A DNA stretch of 51,094 bases from the IMG/VR virus record IMGVR_UViG_3300027651_000002, positions 1 to 51,094 of that record, one strand, 5' to 3'. Made by a program: the position numbers and the translations under genes. Origin of the DNA: a virus. Below the pieces are notes generated by a model. It ran no database searches. It was given only the letters and a program-made list of their open reading frames with translations, and had not been told where the DNA came from. Below, one piece after another: positions 33,137 to 45,401 of the stretch. How positions within the stretch are numbered: position 1 is the stretch's first letter; each line of letters begins with the position of its first letter.

Positions 33137-33649
33137 CTACCAGCCGCGGAGCGCCGGGCGACCGATGATCACCTGTCCGGCCTGCGGGTCTGAATTGATG
33201 GTGACCTGGCCGTCGAGCACGGCCTGCGTCGTGCTGTAGGTCGTGCGCGCCTGCGAGGTGAACGGATTTCCGCCAGCGCCGCCCTTGCCGCCCGCAGCCG
33301 AGTCGGCCACCAGCGGCGTCACCTCGCCCTTGGAGATGAGCTTGAGCCAGGCCAGCGCTTCGTCTTTTCGGTTCTGGAAGACGACGTCGCCCGGATCTTC
33401 GGGGTCGAATCCACGGAAGGCGATCAGGCTGAAGGCCGCGATCGCGACCGAGGCGTCTCGCAGATCCGCGCCCCAGGAGGTGAGCGGGAGCGTGAACTTC
33501 GCGCCGATGTAGCTGTCGATCTTGGCGTTCGCCGCATCGATGAAGGCCTGCTGCTGCGCGGTCGTCACCGTGCCCAGCGCCGACGCGGATAGCCCGGAGG
33601 TCGTCAGGTCGGCGAGGCTCGCGTACGGCGTCGGAGTGAGCAGCGCCAC
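33137..33649 (-). CDS. Mu gp36-like head-tail adaptor (DUF1320-like)
   Basis: YASLADL...FIDAANAKIDSYIGAKFTLPL pattern. Confidence 0.6.
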   Translation of the reverse strand: MALLTPTPYASLADLTTSGLSASALGTVTTAQQQAFIDAANAKIDSYIGAKFTLPLTSWGADLRDASVAIAAFSLIAFRGFDPEDPGDVVFQNRKDEALAWLKLISKGEVTPLVADSAAGGKGGAGGNPFTSQARTTYSTTQAVLDGQVTINSDPQAGQVIIGRPALRGW

Positions 33650-33652
33650 GGG

Positions 33653-34033
33653 CTACCTCGCCTGCGCCTGCTGCTTCTCCGGCTTCACCTCGCCGAGCAC
33701 CTTGTAGGTGAGCAGCATCGGCGTCTTGATCGTCCGGGTCTTGTACCCGTCCGGCAGGACGATGATCTGCCCGCCCTTGGCGTGCTCGAGATGGCGCAGC
33801 TTCGCGGCCACCGTCAGGCCGGGCTGGCGCGCCTCGACCGCCTCGCGCTTGTCGAAGTCGTAGAACTGGAAGGGCGGCCCAGGCGGGTCGTCTTCCAGGA
33901 CTGCCTCGGTCTCGCCGTTGGGCCAGAACCGGCCGCCGGCCCAGAACCCGGGCTCGACTCCGTCGCTCCCGTCGTCGCGGGTGAAACGGCGCTCGGGGAC
34001 AATGACCAGCACACGAACAGGGGTAGAGGGCAT
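33653..34033 (-). CDS. hypothetical virion-module protein (126 aa), paralog of 40382-40780
   Basis: ATG at 34033 with CAGGAG upstream. Shared motifs are listed in the findings. Confidence 0.6.
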   Translation of the reverse strand: MPSTPVRVLVIVPERRFTRDDGSDGVEPGFWAGGRFWPNGETEAVLEDDPPGPPFQFYDFDKREAVEARQPGLTVAAKLRHLEHAKGGQIIVLPDGYKTRTIKTPMLLTYKVLGEVKPEKQQAQAR

Positions 34034-34048
34034 GCGATACTCCTGGAA

Positions 34049-34273
34049 ATGGACACCGTCGAATTTCACGAGGCAGGCCGGCAGGTGATGAACCGGATCA
34101 TCGAGGCGCTGAACAAGCTGGAGGGAACGACCGTGCCGGCCGAGGCGGTCGTGTTCACCCTGCTCGCGGCCGCAGCGATGCAATGCGACAGGTCACTGCA
34201 CATCACCGACCGCGCGGCGTTTCTACGCTTGGCCGGCGAGACCTGGGACAGCCACCGGAAGGCGAACGGCTAG
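34049..34273 (+). CDS. small protein (74 aa), antisense between the capsid and adaptor genes
   Basis: Plus-frame GC3 is 14/17 versus 14/22 for the minus-frame extension. Confidence 0.55.
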   Translation: MDTVEFHEAGRQVMNRIIEALNKLEGTTVPAEAVVFTLLAAAAMQCDRSLHITDRAAFLRLAGETWDSHRKANG

Positions 34274-35232
34274 GCGCCGCACTTCGCCATCAGGAACGGC
34301 AGCGTGTAGCCAGCGTTTCCGCGGGCGTCGATTCCCCAGAGGAACTTGCGGGTCTTGAACACGTTGTCATCGTTCGGCGCGGTCTTCTGCACGACCTGCA
34401 CAGGCTGCCGGACCTGGAAGATGATCCCGCGGACGATGGCGCCGAGCGTCTTCGTGTCGCCCGTGTACCAGGTGGTGTCGTCGCCGGCGAGCTTGGGGAT
34501 CGTGACCACCTGGGCCATTCCCTGGAGCACGTTGGTCTGCTGCGCGGCAGCGGCGTTCTGGCCGGTGGCCGCGGCCGGGGCGGTGAAGGCGGCCAGCACG
34601 ATCTGCCGCGCGGTGACGTCGAGGAGCGGCGGGACGTAGACGGTGTCCGGCATGGTGTTGACCGGGAACCCGTTGGCGCCCTTCCATGCCATCATGCTCG
34701 CGCGGACGAAGGCGAAGTTGGCGGAGGTGAGCAGACGCGCGCCGGATCCGGCGGTGTTGAACAGGTTCGACTGCGTCGGCGAGGAAGGGTTGTCCGGGTC
34801 CTGCGGGTGCGACGCGTTGAAGTACGGCTGCCCGTCGTAGCAGACGGAGGCGGTGGCGTCTCCGTTCTGCAGCGCGGTGATCACCAGCTGATCCGGCCAG
34901 AGTGCACCACTCATCCCGAGGGCCTGGGCGCGCGCGTTGAAGATGCCGAACTGATCGTCGAGGAGCGGGTTCCGGTCGATCTCGACCGTCGCCTCGTAGT
35001 CCTTGTTGATCAGCGTGTACGCGCGGGTCTGGAGGTTCAGGATCTGCCGCTCGCCGAGCCACTCTCGCATCAGCGGGAGCCGGTCGATCCAGGCGTGCAC
35101 TTCCTGCCGCGTGCTGGAGGTGGTCTGGCTGGCGATCGTCGCCCAGTAGGTCACCGTGGACATCAGTGCCTGCTGGACGATGTTGTTGAAGCCGTACCAG
35201 AGGAAGTCGATGTTGCTCTGGATCAGTTCCAT
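34270..35232 (-). CDS. major capsid protein, Mu gpT-like
   Basis: WIDRLPLMREWLGERQI ... YEATVEIDRNPLLDDQFGIF matches the Mu-like gpT family pattern. Confidence 0.8.
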   Translation of the reverse strand: MELIQSNIDFLWYGFNNIVQQALMSTVTYWATIASQTTSSTRQEVHAWIDRLPLMREWLGERQILNLQTRAYTLINKDYEATVEIDRNPLLDDQFGIFNARAQALGMSGALWPDQLVITALQNGDATASVCYDGQPYFNASHPQDPDNPSSPTQSNLFNTAGSGARLLTSANFAFVRASMMAWKGANGFPVNTMPDTVYVPPLLDVTARQIVLAAFTAPAAATGQNAAAAQQTNVLQGMAQVVTIPKLAGDDTTWYTGDTKTLGAIVRGIIFQVRQPVQVVQKTAPNDDNVFKTRKFLWGIDARGNAGYTLPFLMAKCGA

Positions 35233-35314: not shown

Positions 35315-36169
35315 TTACGCCAGCTGGATCAGGAAGTAGCCGGAGCCGGCGGTGAACACGGTGCCGGCCGCGTTGATGAGCGTGATCGTCGAGGTCGGCG
35401 AGACGATGTTCAGCGCCGTGACCGCAGTGCCGAGCACGGGCGTGGCCGCGTAGCCGGTGTTCGCCAGCGTGATGGCGCAGACGCCGCCGGTCGTCGAGAC
35501 GCCGCCGATCTGCAGGTTGACGGCGAAGGTCGCGCCCGCGCCGGTGCCGGTGACGGCCGCGACGTAGGAGATACCCATGATGCGGCAGGCGAAGCCGAGC
35601 GTGATCGGGCCGGCGATGGTGCCGCCGCCGACCACCAGCGAGGTGAGGGTGACCGGGAGGGTCAGGATCTGCGTGGCGAGGCCGACCTGGCCGAAGTAGC
35701 CCATGGAGACCCAGATGCCGCCGTCCGCGTCGAGCAGGACCATCTTGCCGGCGCGCGGGCGACCGGTGCTGGGGACGCGGCCAACCGTCTGATCGTCGAT
35801 GGCGAACACGTCCTGGCCGACGTCCGCCTGGGTGAGCGCGTCCGCCGCGGAGCCGTTCGCCCACTTGAACACGCCTGTCCGGACCGCCACCTGCAGCGAG
35901 CTCGCCGCGTGGCCGGTGTACGTGTTGTTGTAGGACGTGTTCGGGGTGGTGTTCTGGCTCACCGGCTGCGGCAGGTAGGGGACCTCCGCCTTGCCGATCA
36001 CAGTGACGCAGGTGGCGTCTCCGCCGCGGACAGCGAGACCGGCCGAGTTCAGGCCGACCATGCCGCCGACGTAGATGGTCACGTTGTCCGCGATGGGGAC
36101 GAAGTGCAGGTCCATGATCGCGGTGTCCTTGAACTTGAGCGTGTTGCGGATCGCGGTGAGGAAGGCCAT
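35315..36169 (-). CDS. head decoration-like protein (284 aa)
   Basis: Position between the scaffold and capsid genes. The N-terminal half is DUF2190-like (weak assignment). Confidence 0.4.
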   Translation of the reverse strand: MAFLTAIRNTLKFKDTAIMDLHFVPIADNVTIYVGGMVGLNSAGLAVRGGDATCVTVIGKAEVPYLPQPVSQNTTPNTSYNNTYTGHAASSLQVAVRTGVFKWANGSAADALTQADVGQDVFAIDDQTVGRVPSTGRPRAGKMVLLDADGGIWVSMGYFGQVGLATQILTLPVTLTSLVVGGGTIAGPITLGFACRIMGISYVAAVTGTGAGATFAVNLQIGGVSTTGGVCAITLANTGYAATPVLGTAVTALNIVSPTSTITLINAAGTVFTAGSGYFLIQLA

Positions 36170-36250: not shown

Positions 36251-37459
36251 CTAGCCGGTCGCGCGGATCGCAGCGGCCTCGGCCATCTGCTCCTGCAACT
36301 TCTCGAGCGCCTTCGGGTCGGTGATTCCCATCTTGGCGGCGGCCTTCAACTGCTCGGCGGTGAGCGCGATGCGCGGCTTGTGCTCGGGCGACTCGGCCGG
36401 CTTGCGCGGCACCACTGCGGACGCGGTCTTGAGGAAGCCGGCGAGCATCTCCGGGTTCTTCTTCCCGATCTGGAGCCACAGCTCCTTCTGTGCCGGGGAG
36501 ATCTTGCCCTCGCGGATGCCCTGCTCCACCAGCATCTCGGCGGTGGCGCCCTGGCCCTGCGTCTTCAGCGCGGCCAGTTCCGCCTCGAGCTGCGGAATGC
36601 GCGCCACGTCGGCCTTGAGCGAGAGGACCACGCCGAGCGCCTCGCCGTAGCTCTTCGCTCCGGTGAGCTCGATCAGCTGCTTCTCGGAATCGGCGCGCGA
36701 CTTGTCGGATGTGGTCGCGTCGGCGGCGCCCTTCGCGGCGAGCGTGGCGAGATCGGTCTCGCCCTCGCGCACCTTGCGGGCCTTCTCTTCCGCTTCGGCC
36801 TTCGCCTTGGCGTCGGCCTCGATGCGGGCCTTGGTCACGTCGGCGACGCGGGCGCTCTCGCGCAGTCCGTCGAGCGCGGCCATGACGTCGTCCTCGCTCG
36901 CGTTCGGAGGCAGGCCGAGCTTGTACAGGGTCATGGCGTTGGTCGCGGACTTGTTCTTCTTGCCCATGTAGCGCTCCTTGCGGGGGTTCGTATCGTTGCG
37001 GTCACGAGAGGTGACGAGTGGCGTCTGCTTCTTCGTAGCCGGAATATTGGTCAGGGCGACGTTGATCAGTTCCGAGATCCGGTTGTCGTCGCCGTCCTCG
37101 ATGTTGAAGGCCGGGGACACGTAGCGGGCTTCGCGCTTGCCGAGCATCGACCGCGCTTCGTCGTTCCAGCGCACCGCCGTTGCCCAGAGCTCGCCCTGGC
37201 GCAGCTGCGGCGTGAACCAGGCGGCCGCCTTCATCGACTTGGCCGGGTCGACGTTGAAGAACCCGAGCATCGAGTGCGCGTAATCGACGCAGTAGTCGTT
37301 GCCCCAGTCGGCGACCGCGGCCATCACGCTCCGGGCAGCCTGGCCGTCGAAGAGGAAGGTGCCCTTGGTCGTCTCGAAGCTGCCGGCCGGGAAGATGCGG
37401 AAGTCCTGAGGCGGCCCCATGGAGAGGTCCAGCTCGACGGAGAGGGTCGCGCGCTTCAT
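36251..37459 (-). CDS. Mu gpI-like head protease fused to scaffold (gpZ-like C-terminal half)
   Basis: FRIFPAGSFETTKG...CVDYAHS...RYVSPAF is the Mu I pattern. The C-terminus is Ala/Lys/Glu coiled coil. An internal ATG (MGKKNKS) could give a nested scaffold. Confidence 0.75.
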   Translation of the reverse strand: MKRATLSVELDLSMGPPQDFRIFPAGSFETTKGTFLFDGQAARSVMAAVADWGNDYCVDYAHSMLGFFNVDPAKSMKAAAWFTPQLRQGELWATAVRWNDEARSMLGKREARYVSPAFNIEDGDDNRISELINVALTNIPATKKQTPLVTSRDRNDTNPRKERYMGKKNKSATNAMTLYKLGLPPNASEDDVMAALDGLRESARVADVTKARIEADAKAKAEAEEKARKVREGETDLATLAAKGAADATTSDKSRADSEKQLIELTGAKSYGEALGVVLSLKADVARIPQLEAELAALKTQGQGATAEMLVEQGIREGKISPAQKELWLQIGKKNPEMLAGFLKTASAVVPRKPAESPEHKPRIALTAEQLKAAAKMGITDPKALEKLQEQMAEAAAIRATG

Positions 37460-37605
37460 TTCGCCCAACCCTTCCGCAAGGCCCAGCCAAAGCAACGCCA
37501 GAAATGGATTCGGTAACCGCGCCGCAGCCAGCCTTCCGGCAACTTCCAAGCGATGCGATCGCGGACGAGCTGCCAGAAGCAATCCAAGCAGGGCAACCGG
37601 CTCAT
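37456..37605 (-). CDS. Trp/Arg/Cys-rich micro-protein (49 aa)
   Basis: ATGA overlaps with both the portal stop and the protease start. Lies in a lower-GC patch. Confidence 0.5.
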   Translation of the reverse strand: MSRLPCLDCFWQLVRDRIAWKLPEGWLRRGYRIHFWRCFGWALRKGWAK

Positions 37606-38951
37606 TTCGCTGGAGCCACACCCTTCGCCTTCGCCGCCGCGTCGGCCGCGTCCTTCGCCGCCTTGTCGGCCTTCATCTGCGCTTCCTGCGCCGGCGTCAC
37701 CGTCGGCACGTCGTACTCGTCGAGCACCGCCCGGATATCGACCGGAAGCGCTTGCGAGACGGCGGTGGCGAGCGCGCCGGTGAGCTGCTGCAGCGCGGCC
37801 GACTGCTCCTTCTTGTCCTCTGGCGGATCGGCGTTCCAGGTCGCGGTCGGTGCCGAGTCCAGGTCGGTGCCGAAGTTCAGCAGCGCCCACGGTGCGATCG
37901 CTTGCTCCCGCAGGCAGGTCCCTATCGACTTCGCGTCCGACTTCAGGAGGTCGCCGCGGACGCGATCGTGGACCTGGGCTGCCGCGCGGCTCCCGCCTTC
38001 TACTTCGGTCGTGAGGTTCTGCCCGAGCAGGCAGATCGCGATCGAGTTGTTGCACATCTCCACGAGCTGCTGAAACGTCTTGTGCGAGTCGGTCGACGCC
38101 TCGATCAGCTTCAGATCGAACATGTCGTCGTCGGAAGCGCGCGGCAGCATGATCACCGTCTCGCGTCCGAGCGCCGCCAGATCCGCTAGCGCGCGGTCCT
38201 TGTCCTCGCGCTTCGCTTCCGCCGGAACCTGCAGCCCGCGGATGGGCAGACCGTGCACTTCCGAGCTGCGCGCCCAGTCCCGGAACGCCCACTGCCGGCA
38301 CATGAACGGGATCGCCAAGCTACGGACGAGGCCCTGCATCCAGCCGAGCTGGTAGCCGTACGGGGTGTAGAGCACCCACTGCTTGTCGCCAGGGACGACC
38401 TCCGCTGGCCCGGACATGGTGGTGACCCAGAAGCTGCGCGTGTCCCAGCGCCAGTAGATGAACTGCGGGTGCCACACCTTGAGCTTGAAATTGGCCTGAT
38501 CGCCCGTCTGCCAGAGCAATTGGCCCAGGCCGAAGCCGAGGTACAGGCCCCACTTGAGCAATTCTTTGACCGATTCCTCCGGGCACATCTTCGGCCACGC
38601 CTTCTGCAGCGTCGCCGAGTTCTGCCCGTCGAAGACCATGGGCAGCGCGGTCAGGCTGTTCAGCCGCGTGTCCGTGACGCCCTTGATCCGGTCGTCCCAG
38701 AACATCCGGTCGACGAGCTGCGCGGCGAGCGAGAACATGCCGCGCTCGAGCTGGAAGAGCGCGCTCTTGACCTGGCCGACCGAGTCGAAGTCCGTGAAGC
38801 TGACGACCGGGACGTCGACGCGCGCCTTCCGGTCGGCCGGATTGCTCCACGAAGAGCGAACCCCGTCCGGAGACGGAGTCGTGCCACCGCGCGGGGCGAC
38901 AGCATCGAGCGCCTTCGACGGCCGCTTCTTGAGGGCCGCCTCGAGCGTCAT
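37602..38951 (-). CDS. portal protein, Mu gp29-like (DUF935)
   Basis: 449 aa. Contains RMFWDDRIKGV...LGQNLTTEV..GSRAAAQVH. Confidence 0.8.
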   Translation of the reverse strand: MTLEAALKKRPSKALDAVAPRGGTTPSPDGVRSSWSNPADRKARVDVPVVSFTDFDSVGQVKSALFQLERGMFSLAAQLVDRMFWDDRIKGVTDTRLNSLTALPMVFDGQNSATLQKAWPKMCPEESVKELLKWGLYLGFGLGQLLWQTGDQANFKLKVWHPQFIYWRWDTRSFWVTTMSGPAEVVPGDKQWVLYTPYGYQLGWMQGLVRSLAIPFMCRQWAFRDWARSSEVHGLPIRGLQVPAEAKREDKDRALADLAALGRETVIMLPRASDDDMFDLKLIEASTDSHKTFQQLVEMCNNSIAICLLGQNLTTEVEGGSRAAAQVHDRVRGDLLKSDAKSIGTCLREQAIAPWALLNFGTDLDSAPTATWNADPPEDKKEQSAALQQLTGALATAVSQALPVDIRAVLDEYDVPTVTPAQEAQMKADKAAKDAADAAAKAKGVAPAK

Positions 38952-38960
38952 GTAGTGCCC

Positions 38961-39338
38961 CTAGATGGCTGGTCGTTCGCACGAACCAGCGTGCCCGGCG
39001 TCCAGAACGCAGTCGGCAGCGTAGGGCCCGACGTGCGCGGCCGGCTTCGTTGGCTGACCTGGCAGCGCAGGAGCCTTCCCCGCCTTCCAGAACGGCGACT
39101 CGTTCACCAGCACGATGTCCGCGCCGTGCTGCTTCTTCAGTCTGGCAACTGCGCAGCGGCAGGCTTGCGGAACCTTCGTCTCGCCGTCCGCACCTTTGTG
39201 GAAGATCGAGATGTAGAACCCGGCACCGCGGCAGCGGTGGCAGTCCTTCTTCGCGAACGAGAGCACATCGGCCACGACCAGCGCCCGGTCGACGGCAGGC
39301 AGCGGCGCCAGCCGTGGACTCGATGCCTGCTCGCTCAC
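38961..39338 (-). CDS. Cys-rich hypothetical protein (125 aa)
   Basis: GTGA coupling. Contains DCHRCRGAGFY and CRC. Confidence 0.55.
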   Translation of the reverse strand: MSEQASSPRLAPLPAVDRALVVADVLSFAKKDCHRCRGAGFYISIFHKGADGETKVPQACRCAVARLKKQHGADIVLVNESPFWKAGKAPALPGQPTKPAAHVGPYAADCVLDAGHAGSCERPAI

Positions 39339-39715
39339 GGCCCCACCTCAACCACCCAGAAACGGTGCTGCAGGTCCATCAGAGGAAGCGGATTCGCCTC
39401 CATCCATTTCGCGCGGCGCTGATTGCGGTCCCCGATGGCATGCACGACGCGCAGCGTCCCTTTGGGCTCATCCGGGTTGTAGCGGATCGGGTTCTCATCC
39501 CATGACCGCTTGCCCCATGCGTCGAGCGTCTCTCGCTGAGCAGCTTTCCGCCGTTCGGTGTCGGCCAGTGCGTCGTTCGCAGCCGACTGCGACGCGTGCG
39601 CGGTGTAGACCGTGCCGGTCGTCCCGCCCACGAAGACGCAGCCGCAACCCATGAATGAATCTGAATGGCAATGGCAGTCGACGCGGTCATCACTCATCAG
39701 CAGGAACACGCTCAC
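39335..39715 (-). CDS. hypothetical protein (126 aa; alternative ATG at 39697)
   Basis: GTGA coupling. Contains DCHCHSDSFMGCGC. Confidence 0.5.
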   Translation of the reverse strand: MSVFLLMSDDRVDCHCHSDSFMGCGCVFVGGTTGTVYTAHASQSAANDALADTERRKAAQRETLDAWGKRSWDENPIRYNPDEPKGTLRVVHAIGDRNQRRAKWMEANPLPLMDLQHRFWVVEVGP

Positions 39716-40137
39716 GAGGCGCTCCCGTCGTCCGCGTTCTTCACCAGGAGCCAGCCGAAGCCGCGATCTCGGCTGCCGGAGACCTGGATCAGGTCCCAGC
39801 CCGCCTGCGTCCAGACCGCGAGGCCGGAGTCCCACTTGTCCGGCAGTTGCGAGACGTCGTCGGTGCGCGCCTTGATCTTGATGGTGCCGTCGTTCTTCTC
39901 CTTGACGGTGACGAAGGCGGCGAGTCGCATCAATGCTCCAGATCGCTGCTCGAGGACGAGGGCGAAGTCGTTCAGAGCGCCGTTGCCGGTCATGTCGATC
40001 GGCATCCAGTTGTCGCCGAGCCAGGCCGAGAGCCACTGCCACTGCGCCGGCCGCTGCGCCTCGGGTAGAGACGAGGCCAGGACCGCGACGCGCTTGCCGT
40101 TCGAGGTCAGCGAGACGTGCGCGCGCGGACCGGACAT
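39712..40137 (-). CDS. hypothetical protein (141 aa)
   Basis: ORF track. 1-nt stop/start overlap. Confidence 0.6.
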   Translation of the reverse strand: MSGPRAHVSLTSNGKRVAVLASSLPEAQRPAQWQWLSAWLGDNWMPIDMTGNGALNDFALVLEQRSGALMRLAAFVTVKEKNDGTIKIKARTDDVSQLPDKWDSGLAVWTQAGWDLIQVSGSRDRGFGWLLVKNADDGSAS

Positions 40138-40385
40138 CAGCCGCCCGTGGTCACGCGCGCTTCGAGTGCCTGCACAGTCGCTTCCAGCTCAAGGATCCGG
40201 TTCCAGAGATGCCGCTCGTTCGGCGGCGTCATCTGGCAGGTCGGCCCGTGCATCGGAGGATGCCCCATCGGGTTCGCAGCGCAGGCCATCGCGCCACAGG
40301 TGCAGGAGAACGAGAGCACGGCATTGCCGGAATGGAAGCCGGCGGCGCCGCTGGCGGTGGGGCCGTACGTGTTGAAGACCCTCAT
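40137..40385 (-). CDS. Cys/Met/His-rich small protein (82 aa)
   Basis: ATG at 40385 (ATGA overlap). Contains CTCGAMACAANPMGHPPMHGPTC. Confidence 0.5.
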   Translation of the reverse strand: MRVFNTYGPTASGAAGFHSGNAVLSFSCTCGAMACAANPMGHPPMHGPTCQMTPPNERHLWNRILELEATVQALEARVTTGG

Positions 40386-40780
40386 CGCTGCGGCTCGCCT
40401 GCGACGTCTGGTATGTTGGCTTCCGGCGGAGGTGCAGAGGGCGGCATAGCGGTGAGCACGCCAGACTCCGCCTCTTTTGCGGTCGCGCCGGCGACCGATT
40501 GCGAGGGCACTACTACGGCCTCGACCGGCGCCGGCGGCGGATCCTCGACGATGCGGTACGTGAGCATGCACGGAGTCCGCTGCGCGAACGGGTTCCCGCG
40601 GCTCAGCTCGCTGTCAGCCAGCCGCACGCCGCCCTTCGCTGCGTCCAATTCCGCCAGCTGCGATGCGAGCGAACGCTCCGGAGTGTCCTCGAGCACGGCC
40701 TCGGTGACGCCGCCTTCCCAGCAGCGGCCGGCGGCCCAGTAGCGCTGCAGGGCGGTGACGACGACCTTGACCGATGCCAT
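40382..40780 (-). CDS. hypothetical protein (132 aa), paralog of 33653-34033
   Basis: ATG at 40780 with GGGGAGG upstream. Confidence 0.6.
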   Translation of the reverse strand: MASVKVVVTALQRYWAAGRCWEGGVTEAVLEDTPERSLASQLAELDAAKGGVRLADSELSRGNPFAQRTPCMLTYRIVEDPPPAPVEAVVVPSQSVAGATAKEAESGVLTAMPPSAPPPEANIPDVAGEPQR

Positions 40781-40929
40781 CAGCGACCTCCCCAATAGAG
40801 GAACTCGCAGACGATGACCGTTGCGAGGCGCTCGTTCGCGTCGTCCCAGGTCTGGCCTTCGTAGGCCCAGCCGAACGGAATGACTTTGTGCCAAGGAGGC
40901 CGGTCCCGATTGCAATCCCCGCAGAGCAT
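40780..40929 (-). CDS. small protein (49 aa)
   Basis: TGATG overlaps at both ends. Sequence begins MLCGDCNRDRPPWHK... Confidence 0.45.
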   Translation of the reverse strand: MLCGDCNRDRPPWHKVIPFGWAYEGQTWDDANERLATVIVCEFLYWGGR

Positions 40930-41153
40930 CAGTGCTTCTGCCCGCGGTGATCGAGGTACGATCGACGGAGCGCCTCGCGGATGATGCGCTCCCGTTCCGG
41001 AGTTGCGTCGCGCACGGGAACGGCGATCGCCGCCGTGTACACGCCTATTCCGCCAGACCGCTCGCAGCGGCAGATGACCTCGAAGATGTATTCGGTCTCT
41101 CCTGTCGTCGGGGATCTGTCCCGCAGCTTGAAGATCTCCACTTCCTTCGCCAT
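40929..41153 (-). CDS. small protein (74 aa)
   Basis: The ATG overlaps the TerL stop by 1 nt. Confidence 0.5.
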   Translation of the reverse strand: MAKEVEIFKLRDRSPTTGETEYIFEVICRCERSGGIGVYTAAIAVPVRDATPERERIIREALRRSYLDHRGQKH

Positions 41154-42535
41154 CAGATCCTCCGCTTCGGCATGTCCACGCCGCTGGGCAACCCGTCGTA
41201 CGACGCCGACGGCCGTGCGAGCACGTCGTACGCAGCTGCGAGAGCGTCCACCTGGTCGTCCTTCGGGTCGTCGATTCCGGTGAAGCTGACCACTTCCGAC
41301 ACGAACGCGTCCGCCCACGGCGCCTTCTCGGGCACCAGCACCTTGCCGGCGTTCCAGGCTGCGGCGACCGGCTGGGCGCGGACGAACTTGTCTCCGCGGG
41401 CCAGCTCGGGGGTGACGCCGAGCAATTCGGCGGTGCCTTCCTCGGTAGTAGAAGTGTACCAGCGCGACTTCCGGATGCTGTACGTCTTTCTGAGCGAGTC
41501 GAGCACGGCCTTGAAGGGCTCGGTCTTGACCTGGTGCCGCTGCACTTCCCGCAGGTAGTAGAGGCCGCCGAGCTCCACCAGCACCAGGCCGACGGAGTAG
41601 TTGGCGTGCGTCTTCGCGCTGTAGGCGCAGTCGACTCCGAGCGCGACGCGGGATCCGTTCCAATTGATCGACTTCGGGTCGTAGAGGTGCACGTCTCCGA
41701 AGACGGCGCCGCCCTTGGTCCGCGGCTCGCCCTGGTAGAGCGATGCCCAGTCGTACTCGCCGAGTTCCTCGCGCAGCGTCGTCAGGAACGAGAGCGGGCG
41801 CTGTTCGGGCCAGAGCGCCTTGCCGTGCTCGTCGATGGCCGGTAGCCGGATCTTCGTCCAGCCGCGGTCGATCATCCGGCCGGCGAGGTCGTCGGTATGC
41901 CATCGGGTGGCGACCACGATCGCGGAGGCGCTGGGGTGCATGCGCGTCCGGGCGACGCTGCGCATCCAGTCATCAGCTCGCTGGCGGTAGACGCCGGACT
42001 CGGCCTCCAGGCGGTTCTTGTGCGGGTCGTCGACGATCAGGCATCCGTCGACCGGCTCACCTGTAAACCCGGCTCCTGTCCCGGTGGAAAACAGCGATCC
42101 TCCGTACTCGTTCGTCCAGAACTTGCGCGTGCCGGTGGTGTGGAACCCGGCGCGGGCGGCGAGCTGCCGGGTCGCGTCGCTGATCTTGTCCGCGCGATCT
42201 GTCTCGTACGTCGCGTAGGCGTGGCGACGTTTCGGGTTCTGCTGCATGAGCCAGACGATGGCGTGCTCGCAGAGGAACGTCTTCCCGTGCTGCGGCGGCG
42301 TCGAGACCACGAACAGGCCCGGCGTCTCCAGCGTGCTCTCGATTGCGTCGACGAGCGGCTGCAGATGCCTCGGGGTGCTCAGGTCCGGCGAGATCCGTGG
42401 GATGAACTCCAGCAGGCCTTCGGTGCAGCGGTGCAGCTCGGTGCGTTCGGCGTCGGAGAGCTGGGCGATGATGCGCAGCTGCTCTTCGTCGGACTTCGCA
42501 GCGAGGACCTTCGCGATCGCCTTCGCGGTGGTCAC
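41153..42535 (-). CDS. terminase large subunit
   Basis: Walker A PPQHGKT, Walker B CLIVDDP, ATRWH, nuclease-half pattern. Confidence 0.9.
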   Translation of the reverse strand: MTTAKAIAKVLAAKSDEEQLRIIAQLSDAERTELHRCTEGLLEFIPRISPDLSTPRHLQPLVDAIESTLETPGLFVVSTPPQHGKTFLCEHAIVWLMQQNPKRRHAYATYETDRADKISDATRQLAARAGFHTTGTRKFWTNEYGGSLFSTGTGAGFTGEPVDGCLIVDDPHKNRLEAESGVYRQRADDWMRSVARTRMHPSASAIVVATRWHTDDLAGRMIDRGWTKIRLPAIDEHGKALWPEQRPLSFLTTLREELGEYDWASLYQGEPRTKGGAVFGDVHLYDPKSINWNGSRVALGVDCAYSAKTHANYSVGLVLVELGGLYYLREVQRHQVKTEPFKAVLDSLRKTYSIRKSRWYTSTTEEGTAELLGVTPELARGDKFVRAQPVAAAWNAGKVLVPEKAPWADAFVSEVVSFTGIDDPKDDQVDALAAAYDVLARPSASYDGLPSGVDMPKRRI

Positions 42536-42765
42536 GCAGACGAGTCGGGCACTTCCGCTGGGAGCGCCTTCAGCACGTCGTCGAAGTGCAGCGCTTCCTT
42601 GAGGTTCACGCCGGGGTCGGTCGCCGCGATCACCGCGACGCGCCCGTTGCAGAAGTCGTTGCCCGCCACGGCGTCGTACAGGATGCCGATCATCGGCGGT
42701 CCGTAGCTCGGGAACACCACGACCTTGTCGCCGTTCTTCGCCTCACGTCCGTTCTTGTAGTGCAT
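42532..42765 (-). CDS. hypothetical protein (77 aa)
   Basis: ORF track. ATGA overlap with TerL. Confidence 0.55.
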   Translation of the reverse strand: MHYKNGREAKNGDKVVVFPSYGPPMIGILYDAVAGNDFCNGRVAVIAATDPGVNLKEALHFDDVLKALPAEVPDSSA

Positions 42766-42768
42766 GGG

Positions 42769-42942
42769 CTACCCCGCAAGGCGGCGCGCGGCCGCGGTGA
42801 ACTCGCCGAGCACCTGCCGACGCACGTCGCTACCGAATGGCCGTCTCGGCACCAGGCACGGCGCCGCGGAGACCTGCGTCTCGACCTGCTCTCGCTTGGG
42901 ACGACGGACGCGGATGACGGGCGGGTAATGGGTGAGGTTCAT
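42769..42942 (-). CDS. hypothetical basic protein (57 aa)
   Basis: ATG at 42942 overlaps the upstream stop. Confidence 0.4.
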   Translation of the reverse strand: MNLTHYPPVIRVRRPKREQVETQVSAAPCLVPRRPFGSDVRRQVLGEFTAAARRLAG

Positions 42943-43181
42943 CCGTCGATGCGGCGTGGAAAGCGCGGGTGCTGCAGGCAAGGAAAGGTGGAGTCGCAGG
43001 TGCAGGCCGGGATGAAGACGCTGGCGCTGTGCTCAGCGACGAGACGCATGATCTCTTGGAGGCTAGCGTCGACATCGATCGCGCTGTGCTCAGCGACGAG
43101 ACGCATGATCTCTTGGAGGCTAGCGTCGACATCGATCTTCGTCCGGTCAGGGAGAGTGATCGTCGCCTTCATAGGCACCAC
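42939..43181 (-). CDS. hypothetical protein (80 aa) containing an in-frame perfect 19-codon duplication
   Basis: ORF track. IDVDASLQEIMRLVAEHSA occurs twice. Confidence 0.5.
   Translation of the reverse strand: MVPMKATITLPDRTKIDVDASLQEIMRLVAEHSAIDVDASLQEIMRLVAEHSASVFIPACTCDSTFPCLQHPRFPRRIDG
43024..43137. repeat. perfect tandem duplication, 2 x 57 bp
   Basis: 43024-43080 is identical to 43081-43137 (read directly). Confidence 0.95.
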
Positions 43182-43224
43182 GCGAAGGTGAAGAGCAGCC
43201 AGAGCGCCAGCCGTTCGTGCGGCT

Positions 43225-43443
43225 TCAGCGCGCGTCGACGTCGTCCGGTCCGCATGGAGACCTCGAGGCGGTCCAGCCGTTCGACTTCATTTCGCTAGGG
43301 ATCGGATCGATCCGCTTCCACTGGCACTCGCAGGCGTAGACCGTACCCGCGCGCGCTCCGTCGCTCTGGGCGATGACGCCTTCGGTGCGCACGCCCTCGA
43401 CCGCACCGCGGTCGCAGTTCGGCGTCCAGCACTTCCGCGTCAC
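43225..43443 (-). CDS. Cys-containing small protein (72 aa)
   Basis: GTG at 43443 (GTGA overlap). Confidence 0.45.
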   Translation of the reverse strand: MTRKCWTPNCDRGAVEGVRTEGVIAQSDGARAGTVYACECQWKRIDPIPSEMKSNGWTASRSPCGPDDVDAR

Positions 43444-43541
43444 TTCGTCGCTCCCAGGCGCGCCAGCACGACGCCAGCGGTGACGATGCTCGCCATGATC
43501 AGCGCGAACCAGAGCGCGTCCGGGTTGATGTCGATGCACAC
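43440..43541 (-). CDS. single-TM micro-protein (33 aa)
   Basis: Contains ALWFALIMASIVTAGVVLA. Coupled to the next gene. Confidence 0.35.
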   Translation of the reverse strand: MCIDINPDALWFALIMASIVTAGVVLARLGATK

Positions 43542-43545
43542 GGCG

Positions 43546-43767
43546 TCACGGTCCGTGCTGAGCCTGCCCGGGGCAGTCGCCAGGGAACCCAGCCGTGCAC
43601 TTCAGCATCCGGACGTCGCTCCTGATCTGAGCCACATCCGCAACGACCTGGTCGAGCTTCTCCTGGATGCTTGAGTTCTGCCGCAGCCCCTTCGCCACCA
43701 CACCGCCCGCGCCGATCGCGGCCGCCGCCAACGCAGCGCCCACGGTTTTCCAGGCGCCCACGGTCAT
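43546..43767 (-). CDS. N-terminal TM protein (73 aa)
   Basis: ATG at 43767 with GAGG upstream. Contains WKTVGAALAAAAIGAGGVVA. Confidence 0.5.
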   Translation of the reverse strand: MTVGAWKTVGAALAAAAIGAGGVVAKGLRQNSSIQEKLDQVVADVAQIRSDVRMLKCTAGFPGDCPGQAQHGP

Positions 43768-43774
43768 TGCTGCC

Positions 43775-44023
43775 TCAGTGGTTACGGGTCTCGGCGGCGA
43801 TGCCTTCGAGACGCTCAATCTCTCGCTGGTACCAGGCCAGGGTGTAGATCGGGACGGTCTGAAACGGCGCGGCGCGCAGGCGCGCCAGTTCCTTCCGCAG
43901 CAGTGTCAGTCTGCGCTCCCGTTCGCTCATGTACCCATCCAGCCCGGACACGAGTACGTCACCGACGCTCTCCCACCATGGCGCCGAGTAGCTTGCTCCA
44001 CGGCTTGGGCCGCGTCGTCCCAT
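43775..44023 (-). CDS. hypothetical protein (82 aa; alternative ATG at 43930)
   Basis: ORF track. Confidence 0.45.
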   Translation of the reverse strand: MGRRGPSRGASYSAPWWESVGDVLVSGLDGYMSERERRLTLLRKELARLRAAPFQTVPIYTLAWYQREIERLEGIAAETRNH

Positions 44024-44027
44024 CTCA

Positions 44028-44590
44028 TTACGCGGCGAGGTCGCTGAAGTGCGCTCGCAGTCGAGGAAGGAGTTCCTGCTGCAGTTGCCGGATCCGTTCG
44101 CGGCAGATGCCGTAGCGGTCGCCGATGACGTGCAGCTTCTCGCGCGGGTCGGCCATGAACCTGGACTTGATGATGTCGATCTCGCGGGCAGTGAACCCGA
44201 CCTCGTGCAGCCGAGCCCATATCGCCGCCAGGTGTTCCTCGTGCTCGAGTTCGTCGTGCGCCGACGGTTCGCCGGACTCCAACAGATCCAGGAAGGTCAG
44301 GTCGCAGTCTTCGTTCGTCTCGTTCCGAGGATGTGTGTCCAACGAGAACACTACCGTCGGGACTTCCCCGCCCTGCTTGCGCGCCCAGAGACGAGCACGG
44401 CGTTTGGGCAGCCGGACGATCTGCTCGTTGGCGCCGATGCCGTCATCGAGCATGGCGTTGATCCAGTGCAGCGCTTGTCGCCGTCGCGGGCCAGCCGGCC
44501 GACGCGCACTTCCTCCTCGCGCGTCATCGGCGGGTTGTCTTTGATGGCCTGCCGGATCTGCGGACCGACGTCGAAGCGGGGATCGTTCAT
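44028..44590 (-). CDS. sigma-70-like regulator split over two frames (ORFs 44351-44590 and 44028-44453)
   Basis: The N-terminal ORF has TREEEVRVGRLARDGDK. The C-terminal ORF has the region-4-like FTAREIDIIKSRF...HVIGDRYGICRERIRQLQQELLPRL. The high-GC3 signal moves from one frame to the -1 frame near 44470-44485. Confidence 0.55.
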
Positions 44591-44595
44591 GCTCT

Positions 44596-45081
44596 TCAGT
44601 GCACCTGCGGCTCGGTCTTCGGGTCCACGACGCCGGCCAGCACCTTGATCCGCTGCAGCAGCGCCTCGCGCGTATCGAACGACTTGCCAGCGACGGGGGC
44701 CACGTTGTCCGGCTGGTTCAGCCCGGCGTAGTGCAGGAGCAGGTTCGCCGCCTTGAGTTGCCGGTCGTGGGCCTTCAGCATGAGCGGGATCTCCCCGATC
44801 GCTGCTGCAGCACGCTCGGCGCGCTGGGCCCTTCGCATGACCCTGGTGACGGCCTCGATCGCCGGCAGCAGTTCCTTGCGTAGTTCCTCACGGACGACGC
44901 TCTTCGCGACGTCGGCCATCTCGCTGCGGCGGGCCCGCAATGCCTTGCGCACCGATCCGGAACTCACCTCGATCTTGTGCTCGGTCCACAGCCACTGCGC
45001 GATCTCGGAGCTGTCCTTGCCCTCATTGCAGAGCCGGAGCATCTCGGTCTTCAGGCCTGGCGGAATCTTCCTGATGCTCAT
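44596..45081 (-). CDS. HTH plus coiled-coil protein (161 aa), TerS-like architecture
   Basis: ATG at 45081 (ATGA overlap). Contains LCNEGKDSSEIAQWL...SGSVRKAL. Confidence 0.5.
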   Translation of the reverse strand: MSIRKIPPGLKTEMLRLCNEGKDSSEIAQWLWTEHKIEVSSGSVRKALRARRSEMADVAKSVVREELRKELLPAIEAVTRVMRRAQRAERAAAAIGEIPLMLKAHDRQLKAANLLLHYAGLNQPDNVAPVAGKSFDTREALLQRIKVLAGVVDPKTEPQVH

Positions 45082-45401
45082 GCTCGCCCGCCGCGCAGGA
45101 TGCGAATGACCTTGTGCCGCCGCCGCTCGCTCATCGCGAACGCGGTTGCCTTCCAATTCGTCGCCGACGCCTTGGCGATGCGGGCCGCGTCGAGCGACTC
45201 CGCCTCCGCCTGCGCCTTGCTGACCGCGTCCAGGAACTCGCGATGCGGCCCGATCCGTTCCTCTTTGCCGGCCTCGATGTAGGCCCGCATCAGCGCCTGG
45301 TCGACGCCGACTGCGGCTGCGGCGACCTCGAGCGTGTTGCCGACCCGGATCAAGTCGAGCAGTCGCTGCAGCACGTCGCCGGAAAGCTCAACGGCGGGCA
45401 T
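45078..45401 (-). CDS. terminase small subunit-like HTH protein (107 aa)
   Basis: GNTLEVAAAAVGVDQALMRAYIE...FLDAVSKAQAEAE...NWKATAFAMSERR is a pattern common in phage small terminases. Confidence 0.55.
   Translation of the reverse strand: MPAVELSGDVLQRLLDLIRVGNTLEVAAAAVGVDQALMRAYIEAGKEERIGPHREFLDAVSKAQAEAESLDAARIAKASATNWKATAFAMSERRRHKVIRILRGGRA

What the first reader, a model, noticed from the sequence alone, without database searches (positions are those of the whole stretch)
38961..41153. Translationally coupled 7-gene cassette inserted between terminase large subunit and portal
Seen: TerL (41153-42535) and the Mu gp29-like portal (37602-38951) are separated by about 2.2 kb holding seven small ORFs of 74, 49, 132, 82, 141, 126 and 125 aa. 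These ORFs are chained by 1-nt or 4-nt stop/start overlaps (TGATG, ATGA, GTGA). Several are Cys/His/Met-rich (DCHCHSDSFMGCGC, CTCGAMACAANPMGHPPMHGPTC, DCHRCRGAGFY).

Established: in Mu-like and most tailed phages the TerL and portal genes are adjacent or nearly so.

Inference: this is an accessory module co-expressed with the packaging genes. Candidates are packaged or ejected proteins, counter-defence factors or metal-binding assembly factors. I recognise none of the seven.
Basis: partly seen in the sequence, partly recalled or inferred. Interest (0 to 1): 0.62.

Follow-up and report, generated by a model that had tools for sequence, protein, structure and literature searches.

The report
Small-gene slot between terminase and portal
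Seven real, tightly chained small genes of unknown function lie between the DNA-packaging enzyme gene and the portal gene of an uncultured 51-kb phage: three belong to families kept at this spot in related phages and four are strain-specific add-ons, which makes this an ordinary kind of phage accessory-gene slot filled with undescribed proteins.

Summary
Seven minus-strand ORFs (74, 49, 132, 82, 141, 126 and 125 aa) fill 38961-41153 between TerL and a Mu-type portal. All seven junctions are 1- or 4-nt stop/start overlaps. Each ORF's frame is the best of six by codon usage, and shared genes give dN/dS below 1.

None of the seven matches Pfam, PHROGs, NCBIfam, PADLOC or PDB sequences.

The block is not one cassette. 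Across 11 related uncultured phage loci (TerL 51-98% identical) the slot holds 0 to 7 genes in a fixed order.
- o125, a zinc-finger protein, is present in every relative. It always abuts the portal gene or, in two relatives, TerL.
- o141, an internal tandem duplication, and o132 recur in many relatives. o132 is a short paralogue of the gene after the major capsid gene.
- o74, o49, o82 and o126 are strain-specific. o49 and o126 differ from a near-identical relative as exact one-gene indels flanked by CTGATG and CGTGAGCG.

Mx4, JBD30 and five of six more distant TerL relatives whose portal was located have TerL and portal adjacent.

Best reading: a late-operon accessory slot built around a lineage-specific, packaging-linked core. 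Functions remain inferred. This scan has reported terminase-portal slots in other phages. Interest is modest.

The parts
41153..42535 (-). Terminase large subunit (TerL), 460 aa
   Evidence: phrog_38 at 1.6e-64 and Terminase_6C at 1.9e-07. More than 1200 homologues.
40929..41153 (-). o74, 74 aa, strain-specific. Its ends are conserved and its interior is replaced in relative L002.
   Evidence: TGATG overlap with the TerL stop and a GGAGGA Shine-Dalgarno sequence. 31% identity to the 60-aa gene of L002. DNA homology only at both ends.
40780..40929 (-). o49, 49 aa, a single-gene indel flanked by CTGATG.
   Evidence: Absent from L002 exactly at the stop/start junction. Weak homologue next to the o125 homologue in L033, E 8.8e-08.
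40382..40780 (-). o132, 132 aa. The N-terminal ~85 aa domain is a paralogue of the post-capsid gene, followed by a Pro/Ala-rich tail.
   Evidence: Homologues in L002, L003 and L006 at the same place. Paralogue at 33665-33946, 33% identity, E 2.5e-08.
40137..40385 (-). o82, 82 aa, with four conserved Cys and a C-terminal region that looks like a coiled coil by eye (not tested). Found only in near relatives.
   Evidence: 85% identical in L002 and dN/dS 0.28. Cluster member P0008.
39712..40137 (-). o141, 141 aa, a tandem duplication of a ~65-aa Trp-rich unit.
   Evidence: Homologues in L002, L003, L005, L006, L008, L010 and L011. hhalign of the N half against the C half gives probability 97% and E 3e-11. 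Only 10 representative clusters among 1.84 billion. Codon score equals that of TerL.
39335..39715 (-). o126, 126 aa, a single-gene indel flanked by CGTGAGCG. ORFan.
   Evidence: Absent from L002 exactly at the o141|o125 junction. No homologue anywhere.
38961..39338 (-). o125, 125 aa. Conserved ~93-aa zinc-finger core (CxxCxGxG ... CxC) plus a window-specific disordered tail.
   Evidence: Present in all 11 clade loci, next to the portal gene or TerL. AF2 core pLDDT 85-96. dN/dS 0.27-0.35.
37602..38951 (-). Mu gp29-type portal protein, 449 aa
   Evidence: Portal_Mu at 3.7e-56 and phrog_113 at 1.4e-48.
33653..34033 (-). Post-capsid gene (~126 aa), the long paralogue of o132. It lies between the Mu gpT-like capsid gene and the Mu gp36-like adaptor gene.
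   Evidence: Alignment A5. Neighbouring genes identified. Same position in L002, L003 and L005.
44596..45156 (-). Candidate small terminase (TerS), about 2 kb upstream of TerL.
   Evidence: 51-57% identical to the 163-177-aa family upstream of TerL in L003, L004, L006 and L033. That family is linked through the L008 protein to Terminase_2 TerS of L005 and L007 (Pfam).

Best explanation
The 2.2 kb between TerL and portal is a gene-insertion slot in the late (packaging and head) operon of an uncultured temperate phage lineage. It has two layers.

Layer 1 is a lineage-conserved, collinear backbone: o132, then o141, then o125.
- o125 is a small zinc-finger protein kept by every phage that carries this TerL clade.
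- It sits directly against the portal gene or directly against TerL.
- I infer that it works with the terminase-portal packaging or head-assembly machine.
- o132 is a shortened paralogue of the gene after the major capsid gene, so it may be capsid-associated.

Layer 2 consists of strain-specific ORFans (o74, o49, o82, o126).
- They are gained or lost one gene at a time by recombination at the short stop/start overlap sequences.
- Each newcomer is therefore automatically read through and translationally coupled to its neighbours.
- Their roles are unknown. They are moron-like and possibly counter-defence.

Shown: the anatomy, the coding status, the conservation pattern, the exact indels and the lack of any known family.

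Inferred: co-transcription, zinc binding and every functional role.
For: Coding status:
- GC3 pattern, best-frame codon log-odds and dN/dS below 1.

Slot contents in relatives:
- Window: o74 o49 o132 o82 o141 o126 o125.
- L002: o74' o132 o82 o141 o125.
- L003: one unrelated gene, then o132 o141 o125.
- L006: o132 o141 o125.
- L005: one unrelated gene, then o141 o125.
- L010 and L011: o141 o125.
- L007 and L032: o125 only.
- L008: three unrelated genes, then o141 o125, although its portal belongs to another family.
- L004 and L033: empty slot, with the o125 homologue ending 1-4 nt before the TerL start.

Other points:
- The o125 family has only 12 clusters among 5.8 billion proteins. The seven that could be placed on contigs all lie in this context.
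- Against L003, o125 has a lower dN/dS (0.27) than TerL (0.38).
- The o125 core folds confidently, with CxxCxGxG before a beta-hairpin and CxC at the start of a helix.
- o132 is a paralogue of the gene after the major capsid gene.
- o49 and o126 are exact indels flanked by CTGATG and CGTGAGCG.
- dS against L002 is uneven: 0.115 in TerL and 0.51 in o125, which indicates allele exchange inside the block.
- There are no promoter- or terminator-like sites.
- TerL and portal are adjacent in Mx4, JBD30 and distant MAG loci.
Against: - No functional evidence of any kind exists for any of the seven proteins.
- o125 has no fold match in PDB or BFVD, so a packaging partner is an inference from position and co-inheritance only.
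- Tight linkage alone could explain that co-inheritance.
- The argument that o125 follows TerL rather than the portal type rests on one locus (L008).
- o141 and o132 are missing from several relatives, so they are dispensable.
- The o141 model is poor (pLDDT 56).
- The post-capsid paralogue has itself no known function and shows no similarity to JBD30 gp39.
- Conserved accessory genes such as anti-defence genes could show the same pattern.
- The direction of the indels (gain in the window or loss in L002) is not resolved.
Confidence: 0.55

Rival explanations
1. The whole block, conserved genes included, is a counter-defence or superinfection-exclusion island carried in the late operon. It would be analogous to the anti-CRISPR locus in the head operon of Mu-like Pseudomonas phages, or to the sponge cassettes this scan found between terminase and portal in other phages.
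For: - Gene content varies between close relatives and genes are gained or lost singly.
- The proteins are small ORFans with no structural-protein signature.
- Six of the seven have a weaker codon fit than TerL and portal.
- dS is raised inside the block.
- JBD30 carries its two small non-structural genes (gp35, gp36) inside the Mu-like head operon. From my own knowledge these are an anti-CRISPR and Aca1.
- Earlier scan notes report counter-defence cargo in the same slot of other phages (unchecked leads).
Against: - There is no match to PADLOC or to any named anti-defence family in PHROGs or Pfam.
- No HTH regulator domain appeared in the Pfam or PHROGs scans, and no promoter-like site was found, unlike acr-aca loci.
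- o125 is universal in the clade, under stronger constraint than TerL, and moves together with TerL. This is unusual for fast-turnover anti-defence cargo.
- o132 is a paralogue of a head-operon gene.
Confidence: 0.25
2. The small proteins are virion components: capsid-decoration, head-completion or packaged and ejected proteins. They would sit in the head operon because they are assembled together with the portal and capsid.
For: - The genes lie between two head and packaging genes and are translationally coupled to them.
- Lambda places the head-completion protein gpW between terminase and portal (my own knowledge).
Against: - There is no similarity to gpW, Soc or gp39-like decoration proteins, MuF, or any PHROG head, connector or tail family.
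- o141 and o132 are absent from several relatives that have the same capsid module.
- No virion proteomics exist.
Confidence: 0.15
3. Some of the seven, especially o126, o49 and o74, are not functional genes. They would be open frames in GC-rich filler DNA.
For: - In 67% GC DNA long ORFs occur in all frames.
- o126 has no homologue.
- o126, o125 and o74 have low codon scores of 0.09-0.19.
Against: - For each of them the annotated frame is the best of six.
- GC3 exceeds GC2 in each.
- Starts and stops fit exact overlaps with the neighbours, and the indels are exact gene units.
- o49 has a distant homologue in L033.
- The ends of o74 are conserved in L002.
Confidence: 0.05

Closest known systems
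Accessory (moron-type) loci inside the head operon of Mu-like phages, for example the anti-CRISPR/aca1 locus of Pseudomonas phage JBD30 (gp35, gp36)
   Same: Small, variable, non-structural genes are inserted between conserved head-morphogenesis genes of a phage with a Mu-type portal, protease and capsid. Content differs between close relatives.
   Different: The JBD30 locus lies between the G-like gene and the protease gene, not between TerL and portal. From my own knowledge it has its own promoter and an HTH regulator. Here no promoter-like site and no HTH domain were found, every junction is a stop/start overlap, and part of the block is conserved across the clade.
HK97 gp74-type HNH endonucleases of phage packaging modules
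   Same: A small Cys-containing metal-finger protein is encoded directly beside the terminase and portal genes and is co-inherited with them. The CxxC-hairpin-Cys-helix layout is superficially similar.
   Different: No HNH Pfam family matches. hhalign against HK97 gp74 gives a probability of 0.3%. o125 lacks the HH, N and CxxCH motifs.
Lambda gpW (a small head-completion protein encoded between terminase A and portal B)
   Same: A small protein gene sits between TerL and portal in a late operon and is conserved within the lineage.
   Different: There is no gpW Pfam hit. o125 is a predicted zinc-finger beta/alpha protein, whereas gpW, from my own knowledge, has no metal site. The comparison is one of position only.
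DnaJ cysteine-rich domain / Anti-TRAP zinc knuckle (CxxCxGxG)
   Same: o125 carries one exact CxxCxGxG knuckle. Two family members give weak DnaJ_CXXCXGXG hits (E 0.021) and one gives a weak Anti-TRAP hit. Foldseek finds short local matches to DnaJ.
   Different: There is a single knuckle plus a CxC, not the repeated DnaJ motifs. The scores are far below the thresholds. There is no J domain and no global fold match.
Terminase-portal cargo slots reported earlier in this scan in other phages (e1-3666326, e1-3501418, e1-197136)
   Same: The position is the same (between terminase and portal), and the content is swap-in/swap-out small genes.
   Different: Those slots held recognisable cargo: Tad2 and Acb4 sponges, and an RNase toxin with immunity. 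Here nothing is recognisable, and the last gene of the slot is fixed in the lineage.

Membership tests
Phage moron / accessory-gene hotspot | Presence or absence varies between otherwise collinear close relatives | tested here: met
   The slot holds 0-7 genes in 11 related loci. o49 and o126 are absent from L002, whose TerL is 98% identical.
Phage moron / accessory-gene hotspot | Own promoter and terminator flanking the inserted gene (classical moron definition) | tested here: not met
   No sigma-70-type promoter-like or intrinsic-terminator-like site lies in 37400-43400, and every junction is a stop/start overlap. The scan covers consensus types only.
HNH endonuclease of packaging modules (HK97 gp74-like) | HNH / beta-beta-alpha-metal motif recognisable by profile | tested here: not met
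   No HNH family appears in the Pfam scan of 8 members at E up to 5. hhalign of A6 against HK97 gp74 gives probability 0.3%.
HNH endonuclease of packaging modules (HK97 gp74-like) | Gene adjacent to the terminase and portal genes | tested here: met
   The o125 family always abuts the portal gene or TerL.
DnaJ cysteine-rich zinc-finger domain (PF00684) | Repeated CxxCxGxG motifs scoring above the Pfam gathering threshold | tested here: not met
   There is one CxxCxGxG motif only. The best E-value is 0.021, in 2 of 8 members.
Lambda gpW head-completion protein (PF02831) | Sequence match to the gpW family | tested here: not met
   None of the seven gives a Pfam hit to this family at E up to 1.
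Soc-like / JBD30 gp39 minor capsid protein (for o132 and its paralogue) | Gene directly downstream of the major capsid gene | tested here: met
   The paralogue at 33653-34033 lies between the Mu gpT-like capsid gene and the Mu gp36-like adaptor gene. JBD30 gp39 lies directly after gp38. o132 itself is not at that position.
Soc-like / JBD30 gp39 minor capsid protein (for o132 and its paralogue) | Sequence or profile similarity to gp39 | tested here: not met
   hhalign of A5 against JBD30 gp39 gives probability 0.1%.
Barnase/RNase Sa-type ribonuclease toxin (for o126) | Match to PF00545 above threshold, or to solved RNases | tested here: not met
   PF00545 gives E 0.12 and 13.4 bits against a cutoff of 24. 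No RNase appears among the PDB hits at E up to 10.
Known anti-phage defence proteins (PADLOC) | Profile match | tested here: not met
   No hit at E up to 1 for any of the seven.
DUF4177-like alpha/beta unit (for o141; a resemblance I recalled from the GW-x-L/V motif) | Pfam profile match | tested here: not met
   No such family appears at E up to 5 in 6 members. The AF2 model was too poor for a fold test.

The most novel reading that the evidence does not exclude
o125, perhaps together with o141, is a dedicated partner of this TerL clade that binds TerL or the portal as they are made. In the most novel version it masks them from host sensors that recognise terminase and portal proteins (Avs-type STAND NTPases). 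That would be a counter-defence protein inherited as a fixed unit with the protein it protects. The strict adjacency, the translational coupling, the co-inheritance with TerL in two gene orders, and the retention of o125 beside a portal of another family are all compatible with this. Nothing tested here addresses it directly.
Probability: 0.07. Interest if true: 0.75.

Novelty: new member of a known kind. Interest (0 to 1): 0.33.

Why it matters
- The result maps a clean example of how a phage late operon takes up and sheds single genes without disturbing expression. Exchange happens exactly at overlapping stop/start junctions, with 6-8 nt of microhomology.
- It defines three undescribed small protein families tied to the packaging module of an uncultured group of soil phages with Mu-type heads: a zinc finger that always accompanies this TerL clade, a tandem-duplicated Trp-rich domain, and a duplicate of a head-operon gene.
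- If the zinc-finger protein proves to be a terminase or portal partner, it would add a new accessory component to a well-studied machine.
- If the block proves to be counter-defence, it would add new families to that catalogue.
- As it stands, this is an ordinary type of feature with unknown cargo.

Tried and rejected
Family and sequence searches with no usable hit:
- Pfam, PHROGs, NCBIfam and PADLOC scans of all seven proteins.
- Pfam scans of every member of the o141 and o125 alignments. These gave only a weak DnaJ/Anti-TRAP knuckle signal.
- Profile searches of PDB sequences with the o125, o141 and o132 families, and with o126 alone. All returned noise.
- tblastn of o125, o141, o132 and the post-capsid paralogue against 50,697 GenBank phages. 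No match.

Structure:
- The AF2 model of o141 had pLDDT 56, so its Foldseek hits (antibody Fabs) are meaningless.
- The AF2 model of o125 has a confident core but no significant match in PDB or BFVD.

Specific hypotheses rejected:
- o125 as an HNH packaging nuclease.
- o125 as TerS. A separate TerS candidate exists at 44596-45156, and relatives L005 and L007 carry both a Terminase_2 TerS and o125.
- o126 as a barnase-type RNase.
- o132 and its paralogue as relatives of JBD30 gp39 by sequence.
- The seven proteins as pieces of the N-terminal extension of the ~725-aa TerL relatives.

Searches for more relatives that gave little:
- The single-protein TerL scan of IMG/VR found nothing.
- The o125 and o141 profile scans of IMG/VR found 1 and 3 loci.
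A second scan with a tighter alignment found 1 locus.
- o125 was not found in 401 sampled genomes of the phylum of the Polyangiaceae MAG behind L025.

Other checks:
- No Rfam family in the window.
- No meaningful repeats in 38800-42800.
Full report
**What the window is.**
- The window is a complete 51,094-bp virus record from IMG/VR with direct terminal repeats. GC content is about 67%.
- Earlier notes on the same genome describe an integrase and an attP site, so the phage is taken to be temperate (not re-checked here).
- The minus strand from about 17 kb to 42.7 kb carries a late operon with a Mu-type head module:
  - TerL at 41153-42535 (phrog_38, 1.6e-64).
  - Portal at 37602-38951 (Portal_Mu, 3.7e-56).
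  - Mu I-like protease/scaffold at 36251-37621.
  - A virion structural protein at 35315-36169.
  - Mu gpT-like major capsid protein at 34270-35232.
  - A Mu gp36-like adaptor at 33137-33649.

**Check of the observation.**
- All seven junctions from TerL to o125 are stop/start overlaps: four TGATG, one ATGA and two GTGA. Several have a Shine-Dalgarno-like sequence upstream. A 9-nt gap separates o125 from the portal start.
- In this GC-rich DNA long ORFs occur in all frames, so coding status was tested directly.
  - Every ORF has GC3 of 0.76-0.91 against GC2 of 0.48-0.59.
  - For every ORF the annotated frame scores best of six in a codon-usage log-odds model trained on the phage's confident genes. 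o141 scores as high as TerL and portal. The other six score 0.09-0.29.
  - Exactly these protein sequences are on record in the public protein collection.
  - For genes shared with relatives, dN/dS is 0.18-0.69.
- o126 has no homologue outside near-identical assemblies. It rests on composition and on its exact fit between its neighbours.

**No known family.**
- Pfam, PHROGs, NCBIfam and PADLOC give nothing for any of the seven.
- Profiles of the three conserved families find nothing in PDB sequences.
- GenBank phages hold no relative of o125, o141, o132 or the post-capsid paralogue.
- TerL itself is at most 30% identical to the TerL of any cultured phage in the listed hits.

**Synteny in relatives.** TerL homologues from metagenomes and the contigs that encode them, plus IMG/VR loci, gave 11 related loci with TerL 51-98% identical. 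BLAST and HMM comparisons give this picture of the TerL-to-portal slot:

| Locus | Slot contents |
|---|---|
| Window | o74 o49 o132 o82 o141 o126 o125 |
| L002 (near-identical) | o74' o132 o82 o141 o125 |
| L003 | one unrelated gene, o132 o141 o125 |
| L006 | o132 o141 o125 |
| L005 | one unrelated gene, o141 o125 |
| L010, L011 | o141 o125 |
| L007, L032 | o125 only |
| L008 | three unrelated genes (one PTH2-like), o141 o125; portal of another family (PF06381) |
| L004, L033 | empty; o125 homologue ends 1-4 nt before the TerL start |

- The order of shared genes never changes.
- In more distant TerL relatives (49% identity or less; GTDB MAG contigs) none of the three families is found. Of the six loci where a portal was located, TerL and portal are adjacent in five. 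L026 has an unrelated 2.3-kb gap.
- TerL and portal are also adjacent in Myxococcus phage Mx4, the only cultured phage with DNA-level similarity to this portal, and in Pseudomonas phage JBD30.
It is a layered structure, not one cassette.

**How the slot changes.**
- The DNA alignment with L002 and the junction sequences show that o49 and o126 are exact single-gene differences.
- L002 reads ...CACTG|ATGGCC... where the window reads ...CACTG|ATG-(o49)-CGCTG|ATGGCA..., so o49 is flanked by CTGATG.
- L002 reads ...GCCTC|GTGAGCGAG... where the window reads ...GCCTC|GTGAGCG-(o126)-GGCC|GTGAGCGAG..., so o126 is flanked by CGTGAGCG.
- The interior of o74 is replaced while both of its ends are kept.
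- Whichever way the event ran, it used the stop/start overlap as microhomology. This keeps reading frames and translational coupling intact.
- Synonymous divergence from L002 is uneven: TerL 0.115, o141 0.17, portal 0.225, o132 0.31, o82 0.41, o125 0.51. This points to allele exchange within the block.
- Earlier first-reader notes on this genome describe other small genes bracketed by identical junction sequences. I did not re-check those, but the pattern agrees.

**o125.**
- The conserved core is about 93 aa. The window's last ~30 residues are unique and predicted disordered.
- Invariant or nearly invariant residues include C33, C36, G38, G40, H47, E53, C60, C62, R66, K69 and W84.
- AlphaFold2 with 14 sequences gives a confident core (pLDDT 85-96 over roughly residues 20-90). 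The CxxCxGxG knuckle leads into a beta-hairpin, and CxC sits at the start of a helix. This is a zinc-finger layout of treble-clef or zinc-ribbon type.
- Foldseek finds no significant match in PDB or BFVD. Only short local hits to DnaJ zinc fingers appear.
- Two members give weak DnaJ_CXXCXGXG hits at E 0.021.
- It is not an HNH nuclease by any test available.
- It is not TerS. A TerS candidate lies at 44596-45156, and relatives L005 and L007 have both a Terminase_2 TerS and o125.
- The family is tiny: 12 clusters among 5.8 billion proteins.
- Against L003 its dN/dS (0.27) is lower than that of TerL (0.38).
- Its universal presence, constraint and position beside TerL or the portal in two different gene orders lead me to infer that it works with the packaging or head-initiation machinery.

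**o141.**
- The two halves of the protein are homologous: hhalign gives probability 97% and E 3e-11. Each half carries a W..L..W...GW......GN motif.
- The exhaustive profile search finds 10 representative clusters among 1.84 billion.
- The model is poor and its fold hits are meaningless.

**o132.**
- Its first ~85 residues are a compact paralogue of the ~126-aa gene that follows the major capsid gene. The same holds in L002, L003 and L005.
- In JBD30 the gene at that position encodes the Soc-like minor capsid protein gp39 (PMC11445458; gene order). There is no sequence similarity to gp39, so this is a positional lead only.

**The other four.**
- o82 has four conserved Cys and a C-terminal region that looks like a coiled coil by eye (not tested with any tool). 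It occurs only in near relatives.
- o49 has a weak homologue directly upstream of the o125 homologue in L033.
- o74 is weakly conserved at its ends.
- o126 is an ORFan, and its weak Ribonuclease hint is noise.

**Expression.**
- No promoter-like or terminator-like site lies in 37400-43400, and no Rfam family is present.
- Together with the overlaps, this fits read-through transcription from the TerL upstream region and coupled translation. This is an inference.

**Verdict.**
- The feature belongs to a known kind: variable accessory slots in phage late operons. This scan has already reported terminase-portal slots in other phages.
- What is specific here:
  - a lineage-fixed zinc-finger gene that travels with this TerL clade;
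  - a duplicate of a head-operon gene;
  - clear single-gene indels at stop/start microhomologies.
- Function is not established for any of the seven genes.

Noticed in passing
window 42536-45156 (minus strand): The TerS candidate (44596-45156) is separated from TerL by about 2 kb of small genes, including a sigma-70 region-4 protein (44028-44453; Sigma70_r4 at 8e-06). Relatives also carry runs of small ORFs between the TerS-like gene and TerL; L033 has ten. So the TerS-TerL junction looks like a second variable slot.
   Followed up: partly
window 36251-38951; L007 9468-10136; L032 7015-7683; L008 10933-12369: The window and its closest relatives have no Mu F (PF04233) head-morphogenesis gene between portal and protease. 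L007, L032 and L008 have one, and L007 and L032 also have a longer portal (573-576 aa).
   Followed up: no
L008 7401-9151: In this relative the same slot holds a PTH2-like peptidyl-tRNA hydrolase gene and a gene with a faint BubE hit, ahead of the o141 and o125 homologues. The portal belongs to another family (PF06381), and the MuF protein carries a weak CdiA_C toxin-domain hit.
   Followed up: no
L002 2814-3143: The near-identical relative has a 330-nt stretch between the o125 homologue's stop and the portal start. The source pipeline called a 115-aa gene there on the opposite strand. tblastn similarity to the window's o125 tail continues past the L002 stop, so there may be a frameshift or a truncated tail.
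   Followed up: no
TerL homologues P0070, P0079, P0090 and others: A subgroup of TerL relatives is about 725 aa long, with a ~260-aa N-terminal extension that the window's TerL lacks. The window TerL aligns to positions 259-705 of phrog_38. The extension is unrelated to any of the seven small proteins.
   Followed up: partly
P0158 (514 aa): A protein with about seven near-identical tandem ~65-aa repeats (..NLANWIDQGYEIAGIAKNC..) matches the o141 profile in six stretches at E 1.7e-08. The similarity is weak and may rest on the repeated motif alone.
   Followed up: no
window 39712-40137 compared with the rest of the block: o141 has codon usage as well adapted as TerL and portal (log-odds 0.62). 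The other six score 0.09-0.29. This suggests different residence times or expression levels within one operon.
   Followed up: partly
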